Source: an uncultured Pseudomonadota bacterium
Lineage (GTDB): Bacteria > Pseudomonadota > Alphaproteobacteria > RF32 > CAG-239
Length of the DNA stretch: 64,000 nt
Direction of reading: 5' to 3'
Assembly (NCBI GenBank): GCA_902495305.1
Contig: CABUWG010000002.1
Location: 11,783 to 75,782 of the forward strand
Below, piece by piece: positions 30,169 to 36,556 of the stretch; position 1 is the stretch's first letter, and every line of letters starts with the position of its first letter. A program made the position numbers and the translations under genes. The notes beneath the pieces are model-generated. The model worked only from the letters and a program-made list of their open reading frames with translations, had not been told where the DNA came from and did no database searches.

Positions 30169-33100
30169 TTAGGCCGTATAATCACCGCCCCGCGGATCCA
30201 CACCTCTGAAAGGCGTTTGCGGCTTACTGATGTTCTGAGCCGTCATCGGTTCTTTAGAAGCAACCTTTGCCGCCGTGGCTTCTTCCACGCTTTTACCTTG
30301 TCGAAGCGCTTCCAGCTTCTCAGCCCTTGAAAGTTCCTGCGGCTGCTGTTCTGCGGCCTTATCTCCGTGAACCATCGCCTGCAGTTCGTCATTCAGCTTC
30401 TCGACATCGGGTTTTCCGGCAGCAGGCTGAGCTTCTGTCACCGGTTGCTCAACCTTATGAACATCTTCCGGATTCCCGAAAGCCTTCTCAGCTTCCTGCG
30501 CAAACAGCTGCACATCTTGCTCTGCCCTTATCTGCGCATCGGCAATCATGACATCGCTATATTGCTCATCGGACAGATTCTTCTCCAGAAAAGCCAGCTC
30601 CCTGTCGCTGAAATGACCGGCTTCCTGACCAATCCGCTCGGCAATGGCCGAATGCAGTTGCTCACTTCCGACCAAACCGATTTCCTCAGCATTATGAGTT
30701 TGAATCACCCCATCTTCGCTCAAAGAAAACTCCACCGTTTTACCGCTGACAGGATCTCGAACACCATACATTTTGTTTGCCTCGACCTGAGCTTGCATTT
30801 GTTCATTAATATCAGCGACAACAGGCTGCTCGGTTTCAAGACCGGTAATCGTACCGGCTTCCAGCGGCTGTGATGCCCACTCCGGACGTTCTTCCGGCTC
30901 CTGTTGCGCAACCGGCTCTTGTACCGGTGCCTCTTGTACCGATGCTTCCTGCTCGACAGCCGGCTTCTCCGGCTCATTGGCCCAGCCTTCTCCGCCGTCA
31001 CGGTCTATATAATCGGAAATACCGTCATTATCCTTATCCACCATTGGCGGCGTTTGCTGCTCTGCCGGCCGCTCAATATAATCGGAAATACCGTTGTTAT
31101 TTTCATCAACCATTGCCGGAGCTTCATGCGGCACATCTGCAGCAACCGTACTGTCAACCGTTGTCGTTGCATCATGAGACGTCTGTCCGGCAATAACGGC
31201 CCAGGCTGTACCGGCGCCGGCAATACCGGCCGCTCCCATAGCTTTCCATACACTGCCACCGGCTTTTCGCACATCTTTAAAAGCTTTGATGGTTGAACCG
31301 ACACCCAATGCAATTCCTGAAGTTGCCTTGGCATTTGTCAGAGATTTTACCAGCTCCGGTGCCAATTCAGCCGATGCCAGACCGGCTGTTGCCGCGCCCA
31401 AAGCCGTCATTGCCGCACCGGCCAAAGCCATTTTATTGTTTTTTAAGAAAGACCAGAGCTTGAGTTTTTTACCCTTTTTGGCCATTTCTTCTTTTTGCTT
31501 TTTATATTCCTTGCGCAGCTTCATAGCCTGATTAGCCAGAGATGCCGTTGCCACAACCGCCACGCCGGCCGGTCCCATGGCTGCGCCCGCCACATAATAA
31601 GCGCCGGACCATGCCGCAGTCTTGGCCAGAGATTTAAGCATTGCATACTGTTTTGCCGGCGCATTTGCCGCCACTTTAGTATCCAAGTCTTTCCCCTGCT
31701 CCCGCAAGGCTTTTACACCGGCATTGCCTTTTCCGACCTTACTTTCCAGACGGGCGGCAAACCCCTCGCGCGCCTCGCTCTGCGCAGCCATATATCCCAT
31801 CAAAGCCCCTTTTCCGACCTGAAGTTTATGGCCTTTGGCATAATCCTCAATCGCTTTGCTTCCGCCGGCAATCACACTTTCAACACCGGCCAGTCTGCCG
31901 ACTTCCGCCACGATATTCGCTGCAAATTCCTTATTAAATTCTGCCGGATCAATCGGTCCCGGATTCGTACCGGCCATACTTTCCATCGTCTGCAGGCGGA
32001 TACTCTCCAGTAATTGTGCCTTCAGCTCGTCATTATCCTTGCTTTTGGCCTTGCCGGTCATCTTAACGCCGTCCGTAATCTCCAGATTGTCAAACAGCGC
32101 CATAGCATCAGCCATTTCCGGATGTTTCGGCTTCGGGTTCTTCTGAGCCTCTTTCCGGTTCTTATCTAAAATACCTTTGGCTTTTTCATATGTTTTGGCA
32201 GGGAACATTGACTCCGGCAAATGCGAAGCCTTCTCAAGCAGAAAATCCATGCTGCCGAGCTCGTCAGCCGGAACTTCCTTGCCGGTTTTGGTCAGTTTAT
32301 CGGCAATTGCCTTTTCCAGCGCCTCATAATCCGGTCCCACTGTGCCAAAAGCGTTAGACGCCGACAAAGACGCCAGTGTCTTCATATCAAAATCTTTGCC
32401 CTGCCGCAGCTCGGCCATGGCCTTTTCGGCCTCTTCTCTCGACATCGGTTTGACCGGCTCTTCTTTATACTCGGCCTTCTCAAGAGCATCTTTGCCCATT
32501 GCGCTCATGGCGGCAATATTTTCTGAAACCCGTTCGGCATCTTCCGATGTCAACATCGACAAGCCATGCTCTCTGTCATAAGTTTCCGTAAACTCTTTCA
32601 ATTTCCCTTCACAAGCTTCAGCAAGCTCGGCAATCCGCGGCTCATCAAAAGTTCCGTTCACAACCTTGCGGGAATCATACAGCTTGCTTTCCACTTTGGT
32701 AAAAATTTCAAAAGCTTTGCCGGCGCTTTCCCGACGGTTTGACATCGGAATAGCATCAAGCAAAACCTGCGCCGCCGCCAAATCTTCTTTTTTGATAAAA
32801 TCATTCTTGCCCATAGCGGCAATATCATTCAGCTTGCGTCCGACGGCCTCGTCAACGCGCTGCTTGTCAAAACCTTCCGGATTCTTGTCCATTTCGACTT
32901 TCAATGCCGCCAAATCATGCAGGCTCAGCTCGCTCAAATCTTTGTCTTTATCATTGGAAATATTCTGCGCCGTTACATTGTGCATACCGGTAATCGGTTC
33001 TTCTTTGTAAGGTTCTTTTTCCGGCAGGCGCTCTTTGGCTGCCCGCAGCATGGCCTGCATCCCGCCGGCCCATTCTATCGGCGTTTCAATCTCGCCGTTG

Positions 33101-36556: not shown

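What the first reader, a model, noticed from the sequence alone, without database searches (positions are those of the whole stretch)
30169..36556. Tandem pair of giant paralogous proteins sharing a glycine-zipper double-hairpin membrane core (candidate secreted effector/translocon family)
Two adjacent minus-strand genes of 1110 and 942 aa are clearly homologous across a ~130-aa central region. That region consists of two 'bilobed' hydrophobic segments rich in small-residue zippers (GxxxG/AxxxA), for example AAWSGAYYVAGAAMGPAGVAVVATASL versus GASTGMLLAAGALGPTGLAAYGVYASY. The segments are separated by a conserved basic loop (KEYKKQKEEM / KESRKDYKSF). Both N-terminal halves are long K/E-rich helical regions, and the C-terminal halves differ completely. 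A has acidic, EF-hand-like repeats. B has a six-Cys domain, a PEPVEPEP linker and a KEAAKAE repeat tail. This resembles host-membrane-inserting effectors (Inc-like bilobed domains) or T3SS-translocator-like proteins. It is a candidate for an undescribed membrane-targeting toxin/effector system in a probably host-associated bacterium.
Basis: partly seen in the sequence, partly recalled or inferred. Interest (0 to 1): 0.72.

Follow-up and report, generated by a model that had tools for sequence, protein, structure and literature searches.

The report
Paired giant membrane-core proteins, unknown family

Summary
The observation largely holds. ORF A (30169-33501, minus strand, 1110 aa) and ORF B (33728-36556, minus strand, 942 aa) are paralogues (BLASTP E=2e-9). 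The shared region is about 290 aa, not 130. It contains three Ala/Gly-rich hydrophobic segments, not two, and B has five Cys, not six.

A profile of the shared core finds 155 clusters of giant proteins (600-2300 aa) in a library of 1.84 billion proteins. They split about 1:1 into A-type and B-type. A third type sits beside B-type genes in two other lineages.

Nothing matches in Pfam, NCBIfam, PHROGs, PADLOC, PDB sequences, PDB folds, BFVD, phage records, plasmid records or IMG/VR.

The B-then-A pair lies at the same housekeeping position (ldcA, B, A, deoA) in eight related gut MAG or metagenome loci. None of the loci inspected carries secretion, phage, chaperone or immunity genes.

The core is a basic island in otherwise acidic proteins. 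The stretch after the last helix is acidic. Cys, DxDxDG loops and proline spacers lie C-terminal. This favours an inner-membrane pair with N-terminus in and C-terminus out (confidence about 0.4).

The helices are less hydrophobic than true TM segments of the same genome. The secreted membrane-inserting effector reading therefore stays open (about 0.28). Function is unproven.

The parts
33728..36556 (-). Gene B: 942-aa B-type family member, upstream gene of the pair
   Evidence: ORF. Orthologues at 61-95% identity. Matches the core profile.
30169..33501 (-). Gene A: 1110-aa A-type family member, downstream gene of the pair
   Evidence: ORF. Orthologues at 52-100% identity. Matches the core profile.
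36592..36634 (-). Promoter-like region of B: motif TTGACAAAAAGTTGTTG (36634-36618), overlapping TTGAAA, 17-nt spacer, TATTAT
   Evidence: The motif lies 77-78 nt upstream of the ATG in five of six related loci, with a near-match in L003.
33538..33579 (-). Promoter-like region of A: TTGACAAAAATTGTTG (33579-33564), overlapping TGTACA, 16-nt spacer, TACAAT. Same motif and same distance (-78) as upstream of B
33662..33704 (-). Terminator-like hairpin plus T-run between B and A (GAGAAAGGGCTGCGG-AGAAATC-TGCGGCTCTTTCTCTTTT)
   Evidence: Sequence. A hairpin is kept at this position in six related loci, with different stem sequences. This implies separate transcription units, with read-through possible.
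35663..36109 (-). B residues 150-298: amphipathic helical half of the shared core
   Evidence: Alignments. AF2 pLDDT about 70-89.
35168..35662 (-). B residues 299-463: hydrophobic half of the core. Segments 299-333 (central G-P), 361-390 and 439-463, with a basic loop at 334-360
   Evidence: Net charge +11, against -47 for the C-terminal region.
34538..35005 (-). B residues 518-673: domain holding all five Cys of B. It is the most conserved part of B (82.5% mean identity)
   Evidence: AF2 confidence is low, so the fold is unknown.
34457..34537 (-). B residues 674-700: proline-rich PEPxxPEP spacer
   Evidence: Length and sequence vary among orthologues.
33812..34279 (-). B residues 760-915: confidently modelled alpha/beta C-terminal domain, followed by a KEAAKAE repeat tail (residues 896-930)
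   Evidence: AF2 pLDDT about 80. No PDB fold match.
31609..32046 (-). A residues 486-631: amphipathic helical half of the core
   Evidence: AF2 with a 36-sequence family alignment, pLDDT 77-96.
31183..31608 (-). A residues 632-773: hydrophobic half of the core. Segments 632-660 (central G-P), 690-715 and 751-773, with a lysine-rich loop at 661-689 (motif K-E-Y-K-K-Q-K)
   Evidence: Net charge +14. 82.5% mean identity among orthologues.
30976..31116 (-). A residues 796-842: two DxDxDG-type acidic loops (DENNNGISDYIE, DKDNDGISDYID), then RDGGEGWAN
   Evidence: This is a motif match only. Pfam TSP_3 and EF-hand models were not matched at E<=1.
32122..32511 (-). A residues about 331-460: partial internal repeat of the amphipathic half of the core
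   Evidence: hmmsearch with the core profile; secondary match to profile positions 51-152.

Best explanation
A and B are an A-type and a B-type member of an undescribed family of giant bacterial proteins. All members share a core of about 300 aa. It is an amphipathic helical bundle followed by three Ala/Gly-rich ('small-residue zipper') helices joined by lysine-rich loops.

Most likely the core embeds both proteins in the bacterium's own inner membrane. The basic loops and the large acidic helical N-terminal domains would lie on the cytoplasmic side. The last helix would carry the acidic, lineage-variable C-terminal region (DxDxDG loops in A; the Cys-bearing domain and proline spacer in B) to the periplasmic side. 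The two paralogues probably pack through their small-residue helices into a hetero-oligomeric scaffold or channel-like assembly in the envelope.

Shown: the paralogy, the family and its two-subfamily structure, separate conserved promoters, conserved housekeeping synteny, the charge and Cys asymmetry, and the absence of known homologues.

Inferred: membrane insertion, topology, hetero-oligomerisation and any envelope role.
For: - Paralogy and family. A-type 71 clusters, B-type 65 clusters, an approximately 1:1 ratio.
- Tandem pairs of different subtypes in several lineages. B+A in the window, in L001 and in L003-L008 and in L017, where both genes are called at the same position but the 1136-aa downstream gene was not itself scored. 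A third type plus B-type in L014 and L016.
- Vertical, stable context: ldcA-B-A-deoA is kept while housekeeping neighbours diverge to 81-88% identity.
- No secretion, phage, chaperone or immunity genes in any locus whose gene calls were inspected.
- No signal peptide in any member examined, so the N-terminal domain should stay cytoplasmic.
- Family-wide charge pattern over 59 members: flank before helix 1 is +3.5, loop 1 is +5.5, loop 2 is +3.3, and the 40 aa after helix 3 are -4.0 with only 2 K/R. By the positive-inside rule (established knowledge) this puts the C-terminus outside.
- Cys is almost absent N-terminally (0.36 per protein) and concentrated C-terminally (1.98). Even counts outnumber odd counts 27 to 14.
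- DxDxDG loops, PEP-type spacers and the KEAAKAE helix lie C-terminal. These features are typical of periplasmic or extracellular proteins such as TonB, TolA and TSP3-repeat OmpA proteins (own knowledge).
- A and B evolve faster than the neighbouring enzymes and about as fast as the envelope protein AsmA.
Against: - The three segments are poorly hydrophobic. Hessa-scale sums are +2.4 to +5.0 for A and B, and the family median for the best segment is +3.1. Real TM segments encoded in the same window have a median of +1.2, and the single anchors score -0.7 (AsmA) and +1.7 (HflK-like). Sec/YidC insertion is therefore not assured.
- With three membrane passes and N-in, loop 1 would be periplasmic, yet it is the most basic loop. 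The simple topology therefore violates the positive-inside rule at one loop.
- AF2 gives low confidence for helices 2 and 3.
- The acidity after helix 3 is about the same as the average acidity of the whole C-terminal region, so that part of the asymmetry is weak evidence.
- No peptidoglycan-binding, outer-membrane-binding or other envelope domain was detected.
- No experiment or dedicated topology predictor was available.
Confidence: 0.4

Rival explanations
1. Secreted membrane-inserting effector, translocator or pore-forming toxin. The proteins would be made soluble in the cytoplasm, with the marginally hydrophobic helices shielded by the amphipathic bundle. An unlinked secretion system would export them. 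The glycine-zipper helices would then insert into a host, protist or competitor membrane. The variable C-terminal regions would be the payload or targeting modules.
For: - No signal peptide, giant size and very low Cys content.
- Hydrophobic segments clearly less hydrophobic than resident TM segments of the same genome. [quoted passage not shown]
- An amphipathic bundle followed by hydrophobic helices is the general layout of colicin-like and translocator-like inserting domains (own knowledge).
- Variable C-terminal regions on a conserved core.
- Gut-associated lineages.
- Conserved extreme C-termini (DPRGGxYTA in A; SNSWDY in B) could be export signals.
- Effector genes are often unlinked to their secretion apparatus (own knowledge).
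Against: - No secretion, chaperone or immunity gene in any locus inspected.
- Stable vertical synteny inside a housekeeping block and an approximately 1:1 A:B subfamily structure look like a core cellular component.
- No match to translocator, Inc, colicin or toxin families. The fold hits are non-specific.
- With three segments the N- and C-terminal domains end up on opposite sides. Moving a 340-1000 aa acidic domain across a target membrane without a translocon is implausible.
- GC content is like the surroundings.
Confidence: 0.28
2. Cytoplasmic, monotopic membrane-associated scaffold. The Ala/Gly helices would be short re-entrant wedges or interfacial helices in the inner leaflet. The first has an invariant central Gly-Pro. 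The lysine-rich loops would bind anionic lipids. Both large acidic domains would stay in the cytoplasm, in the manner of a polar landmark or a membrane-shaping protein.
For: - All three flanks and loops around helices 1 and 2 are positive. This is 'frustrated' for a true membrane crossing and fits same-side attachment.
- There is a conserved G-P in the middle of helix 1.
- Hydrophobicity is too low for confident TM insertion.
- The core is a basic island (+11 to +14) in proteins with overall net charge of -39 (B) and -60 (A).
Against: - AF2 models helix 1 plus the basic stretch as one straight helix, not a hairpin.
- C-terminal Cys clusters with even-number bias, DxDxDG loops and proline spacers are unexpected for cytoplasmic domains.
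- No homology to known landmark or membrane-shaping proteins.
Confidence: 0.15
3. Mobile-element structural protein, such as a phage tape-measure protein or a conjugation-channel protein. These are also giant, helical proteins with Gly/Ala-rich hydrophobic stretches.
For: General resemblance only (own knowledge). A few tape-measure proteins appear among BFVD hits, at E>1.
Against: - No PHROG match at E<0.01.
- No tblastn match in 50,697 phage or 72,556 plasmid records, and none in IMG/VR.
- No phage or conjugation genes in any locus. The neighbours are deo, ldcA, umuDC and ribosomal genes.
Confidence: 0.02

Closest known systems
T3SS hydrophobic translocators (IpaB/SipB/YopB) and T3SS/T4BSS transmembrane effectors
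Chlamydial Inc proteins (bilobed hydrophobic domain)
   Same: Paired hydrophobic stretches rich in small residues in a host-associated bacterium.
   Different: The two lobes of an Inc domain are joined by a short turn, and both termini face the same side (own knowledge). Here the first two segments are about 27-30 aa apart (family mean 43 aa between hydrophobic peaks), across a lysine-rich helix, and there is a third segment. The taxon is not a chlamydia.
Bitopic envelope-spanning or landmark proteins (TolA, TonB, PodJ, FimV/HubP)
   Same: Large, acidic, length-variable proteins. Helical K/A/E repeats (B tail KEAAKAE) and (E/K)P-type proline spacers. Cytoplasmic and periplasmic domains either side of a membrane anchor. 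Housekeeping chromosomal context.
   Different: Those proteins have one canonical, strongly hydrophobic anchor, and most have recognisable Pfam domains. Here the anchor is a conserved 300-aa core with three weak Ala/Gly helices, and no known domain is detected.
Glycine-zipper channel-forming or membrane-active helices (VacA N-terminus, MscL, ATP-synthase c-ring type packing)
   Same: Conserved small-residue spacing in the hydrophobic helices (G/A/S at i, i+4; family signature W..A....AG...GP.G.AAVA).
   Different: Motif-level similarity only. No homology, and oligomerisation was not tested.
Thrombospondin type-3 / DxDxDG calcium-binding loops
   Same: A has DKDNDGISDYID and DENNNGISDYIE, which fit DxDxDGxxDxxD.
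   Different: Only two loops. The Pfam TSP_3 and EF-hand models do not score at E<=1. Calcium binding is untested.

Membership tests
T3SS translocators (IpaB/SipB, SseC/YopB Pfam families) | Significant match to the family profile | tested here: not met
   Pfam scans of A and B at E<=1, of 42 family members at E<=0.001 and of 36 cores at E<=1 did not return these families.
T3SS translocators (IpaB/SipB, SseC/YopB Pfam families) | Encoded in an injectisome locus next to a class II TPR chaperone gene | tested here: not met
   The window and the other loci inspected show only housekeeping neighbours. Only flagellar fliM is present in the window.
T3SS translocators (IpaB/SipB, SseC/YopB Pfam families) | Structural similarity of the helical region | tested here: inconclusive
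Chlamydial Inc proteins | Bilobed hydrophobic domain: two TM lobes joined by a short loop | tested here: not met
   Three segments. The first two are separated by a basic loop of about 27-30 aa in A and B; the family mean is 43 aa between 17-residue hydrophobic peaks.
Chlamydial Inc proteins | T3SS-dependent secretion and insertion into the inclusion membrane | not testable with these tools
   Needs experiments. The organism is an uncultured gut alphaproteobacterium.
Secreted transmembrane effectors (T3SS/T4BSS) in general | Intermediate hydrophobicity of the TM segments compared with resident membrane proteins | tested here: met
   Hessa-scale sums are +2.4 to +5.0, against a median of +1.2 for TM segments of SecY, PHO4, NhaP and other window-encoded membrane proteins. 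The scale was entered from memory, has no position or length terms, and is not directly comparable with the thresholds in PMC6110835.
Secreted transmembrane effectors (T3SS/T4BSS) in general | A cognate secretion system present in the genome | not tested
   Only 64 kb of the genome and flanks of up to 10 kb around relatives were available.
Phage tape-measure proteins | Located in a tail-gene cluster, with a match to phage protein families | tested here: not met
   Contexts.
Polymorphic toxin systems | Recognisable C-terminal toxin domain followed by a small immunity gene | tested here: not met
   No toxin domain. B is followed by A, and A by the convergent deoA gene.
TolA/TonB-type envelope spanners | Single N-terminal TM anchor plus a TolA_C or TonB_C domain | tested here: not met
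   The hydrophobic segments are central, not N-terminal. No Pfam hit. Only the spacer-like repeats resemble these proteins.
DxDxDG calcium-binding loop (TSP3 / EF-hand-like) | DxDxDGxxDxxD sequence pattern | tested here: met
   A residues 822-833 match exactly and residues 799-810 match with N substitutions. No profile-level match.

The most novel reading that the evidence does not exclude
The A-type, B-type and third-type proteins form a previously unknown hetero-oligomeric glycine-zipper membrane machine specific to a clade of host-gut Alphaproteobacteria-like bacteria. One possibility is a self-contained way of inserting giant effector or adhesion modules into a foreign (host, protist or bacterial) membrane without a classical secretion system. 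Another is a new type of envelope-spanning conduit.
Probability: 0.2. Interest if true: 0.8.

Novelty: new variant of a known kind. Interest (0 to 1): 0.5.

Why it matters
These uncultured gut Alphaproteobacteria turn up in human, mouse and ruminant gut metagenomes, and their cell biology is essentially unknown. Each of these genomes spends about 6 kb on this gene pair.

The pair is conserved, sits at a fixed chromosomal position and defines a family of at least 155 sequence clusters that no database describes. If the proteins are envelope scaffolds, they mark a lineage-specific piece of cell architecture. If they are exported membrane-inserting proteins, they would be the first candidate host- or competitor-directed factors for this group, and a new family of such proteins.

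The core signature and the A-type and B-type profiles give a concrete handle for annotation and for experiments.

Tried and rejected
- **Family libraries.** Pfam, NCBIfam, PHROGs and PADLOC scans of A and B returned nothing credible. Pfam on 42 full-length relatives gave only low-complexity hits (Extensin-like, HC2). Pfam on 36 cores at E<=1 gave no recurrent family.
- **Solved structures by sequence.** Searches with two profiles gave nothing below E=0.2.
- **Phage or plasmid origin.** Rejected.
- **Homology between the two C-terminal domains** (a beta-beta-beta-alpha look-alike). Rejected by hhalign.
- **Other large orphan ORFs in the window** (953 aa and 1044 aa). Unrelated to A and B.
- **Profile search of the word-indexed database with the family alignment.** Returned only two fragments.
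- **Genome-collection scan.** Found only six close relatives, so the taxonomy of distant members stays unresolved. Cluster look-ups gave only 'Alphaproteobacteria bacterium', 'Pseudomonadota bacterium' and one doubtful 'Lactobacillaceae bacterium' label.
- **Literature search for sample accessions.** Found nothing.
- **Conserved partner gene in the flanks.** None is consistent. One locus has exbB-exbD downstream, which is probably coincidence.
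Full report
**Observation.** The window holds two same-strand ORFs exactly where the finding says. B is at 33728-36556 (minus strand, 942 aa) and A is at 30169-33501 (minus strand, 1110 aa), with 226 nt between them.
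- Pairwise BLASTP gives E=2e-9 and 26% identity over A490-747 against B153-429. The shared region is therefore about 290 aa, not about 130.
- A Kyte-Doolittle scan finds three hydrophobic stretches in each protein: A 632-660, 690-715 and 751-773; B 299-333, 361-390 and 439-463.
- The quoted peptides, the basic loop, two DxDxDG loops in A, and the PEP linker and KEAAKAE tail in B are all there. B has five Cys (518, 542, 627, 654, 673), not six, and A has one.
- The C-terminal domains are not detectably related (hhalign probability 3%).
- Both genes have full-length orthologues at 52-97% identity, with domain-wise conservation. They are real genes under purifying selection.

**Transcription signals.**
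- Each gene has a GGAG-type ribosome-binding site and its own sigma-70-like promoter.
- Both promoters carry the same extended motif, TTGACAAAAA(N)TTGTTG, at the same distance (-78) from the ATG. A conserved terminator-like hairpin follows B, with different stem sequences in related genomes.
- The two genes are therefore separate transcription units with paralogous promoters, and probably co-regulated.

**Organism and synteny.**
- Identical or near-identical proteins occur in assemblies whose NCBI names read 'MAG... Alphaproteobacteria bacterium'.
- The six genome-collection relatives are gut MAGs from Hadza humans, mouse, water-deer rectum and Brazilian samples.
- In L001 and in all six genome-collection loci, B and A lie in the same order. 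In L001 and in L017, a more distant clade whose B core is only about 42% identical, the gene calls place the pair between ldcA/umuDC and deoA-deoC-PNP-cdd-asmA. In L017 the 1136-aa downstream gene was called at the A position but was not itself scored with the profile.
- A and B diverge faster (62-89% identity) than the neighbouring enzymes (81-97%) and about as fast as AsmA (70-93%).

**The wider family.**
- A profile of the shared core (A3) was searched against 1.84 billion representative proteins. It finds 155 clusters at E<=1e-3, 84 of them at E<=1e-10. Nearly all are 600-2300 aa with the core in the middle.
- None of the 22 members examined has an N-terminal signal peptide, and most have the three central hydrophobic stretches.
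- Type-specific HMMs split the family into 71 A-type clusters (median 1216 aa) and 65 B-type clusters (median 942 aa).
- A third, more divergent type lies immediately upstream of a B-type gene in two other lineages, L014 and L016.
- Family signature...D.KL.KKYGK.Y...K...K....W..A....AG...GP.G.AAVA......K.[YF]KK.K......F..Y.K.NK...A..L....G....
- The approximately 1:1 subfamily ratio and the repeated tandem pairing of unlike subtypes suggest that the paralogues work together. This is an inference.

**Search for known relatives.**
- No credible match in Pfam, NCBIfam, PHROGs or PADLOC for A or B. None for 42 relatives, apart from proline-rich and lysine-rich low-complexity hits. No recurrent weak hit among 36 cores.
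- No match among PDB sequences.
- AF2 of full-length B is confident only for residues 1-300 (helical) and 760-915 (alpha/beta). Foldseek against the PDB finds nothing.
- AF2 of the A core with a 36-sequence family alignment gives pLDDT 73 and pTM 0.62. It shows a well-defined helical bundle of about 145 residues, a single long helix covering hydrophobic segment 1 plus the basic stretch, and low confidence beyond that.
- BFVD, phage records, plasmid records and IMG/VR give nothing.

**Gene context.** Besides the window and L001, I inspected gene calls for ten further loci of family members: L009 to L018. The neighbours are housekeeping genes, including aspS, rnd, ispA, mutS, RNase J, uvrA, rfb genes, tgt, alr, flgE, bactofilin, exbBD and ribosomal genes, or further orphan genes. 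There are no T3SS, T4SS or T6SS components, no chaperone-like or immunity-like partner that recurs, and no phage genes.

**Membrane-related properties.**
- Across 59 members with three clear segments, net charges are +3.5 for the flank before segment 1, +5.5 for loop 1 (9 K/R), +3.3 for loop 2, and -4.0 for the 40 residues after segment 3.
- The N- and C-terminal regions as a whole are acidic, at -26 and -45 on average.
- Cys is almost absent N-terminally (0.36 per protein) and concentrated C-terminally (1.98). Even counts outnumber odd counts 27 to 14.
- The core is therefore a basic island between two acidic arms.
- On a simple Hessa-scale sum, with the scale entered from memory and no position or length terms, the segments of A and B score +2.4 to +5.0 and the family median for the best segment is +3.1. 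For 29 TM segments of membrane proteins encoded in the same window, the median is +1.2. The single anchors score -0.7 (AsmA) and +1.7 (HflK-like).
- Secreted T3SS and T4BSS membrane proteins are reported to have such intermediate hydrophobicity (PMC6110835).

**Interpretation.** The data support a new family of giant proteins with a membrane-active core, present as a conserved A/B pair. I favour, at about 0.4, a resident inner-membrane pair with cytoplasmic N-terminal domains and exported C-terminal regions. Four observations point that way:
- the vertical, housekeeping-embedded and secretion-free contexts;
- the absence of a signal peptide, with a basic core followed by a K/R-poor acidic stretch;
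- the C-terminal location of Cys, DxDxDG loops and proline spacers;
- the subfamily structure.

Weak points are the low hydrophobicity, the very basic loop 1 (which a simple three-pass N-in topology would place outside), and the poor AF2 confidence. It lacks any secretion context or family match, and it has a topological problem with three segments. A monotopic cytoplasmic scaffold (about 0.15) fits the charge pattern around segments 1 and 2 and the central Gly-Pro, but not the C-terminal features. A phage or mobile-element origin is rejected.

**Novelty and interest.** The family is not described in any library searched. Its elements (small-residue-zipper helices, basic juxtamembrane loops, acidic repeats, proline spacers) are ordinary. 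I rate it a new variant of a known kind, meaning large membrane-anchored or membrane-inserting proteins. Interest is moderate at 0.5, because the function is open and these gut lineages are poorly understood. About 0.2 probability remains that it is a new type of membrane machine.

Noticed in passing
window 36618-36634 (-) and 33564-33579 (-): Both genes carry the same extended promoter-proximal motif, TTGACAAAAA(N)TTGTTG, 78 nt upstream of the ATG. For B it is kept at -77/-78 in five of six related MAG loci. For A the exact form is kept in two loci, with near-matches in the others. This suggests paralogous promoters or a shared regulator site.
   Followed up: partly
window 33662-33704 (-): A terminator-like hairpin lies between B and A. 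A hairpin is kept at this position in six related loci, with different stem sequences.
   Followed up: partly
window 1876-4737 (-), with 4740-5405 (-) and 920-1855 (-): A 953-aa orphan protein has a type IV prepilin-like N-terminus (…KSQAG/SLLIEAMAMLGLIAMV…) and no Pfam match. It is flanked by two further orphan ORFs with N-terminal hydrophobic segments. It may be a giant pseudopilin-like protein.
   Followed up: no
window 8461-11595 (+): A 1044-aa orphan with a signal-peptide-like N-terminus and no Pfam match lies just downstream of fliM (6219-7301) and overlaps the uvrB start (11592) by 4 nt. It is unrelated to A and B.
   Followed up: no
L003 5437-8313 and 8522-11893: Divergence is discordant in one MAG. 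Its A orthologue is 81.5% identical to the window's A, but its B orthologue is only 62.4% identical, as in the most distant loci. Housekeeping neighbours are about 84-87% identical. This could reflect recombination or allelic replacement of one gene of the pair.
   Followed up: no
L015 1775-4210; L016 1349-4576: In two distant lineages the family genes are preceded by tandem K/E-rich orphan ORFs (378-523 aa, no Pfam). The two L015 ORFs and the first L016 ORF (1349-2902) are homologous to one another but not to the family. Several end in similar ...R(E/D)GGR tails, which recall the DPRGGxYTA end of A.
   Followed up: partly
L018 9956-12057: A 1997-aa family member lies upstream of exbB (MotA_ExbB), exbD and a 307-aa orphan gene, a Tol/Ton-like cluster. 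This was seen in only one locus.
   Followed up: no
window 32122-32511 (-), A residues about 331-460: A contains a partial internal repeat of the amphipathic half of the core. It also has repeated short motifs: EPYKEEP... / AEYKEEPVKPM..., and TAQNIS near residues 176 and 1086.
   Followed up: partly
L011 (contig Ga0466714_074198, 829 kb): The NCBI name of a distant A-type member and of its neighbour RNase J is 'Lactobacillaceae bacterium' (MAG). This fits poorly with the other family labels (Alphaproteobacteria, Pseudomonadota). The taxonomic label may be wrong, but this was not verified.
   Followed up: no
window 22527-26759 (-) and 37862-39548 (+): A 1410-aa AsmA-family protein and a umuD-umuC pair lie close to the pair. 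They are ordinary neighbours, recorded for context.
   Followed up: no
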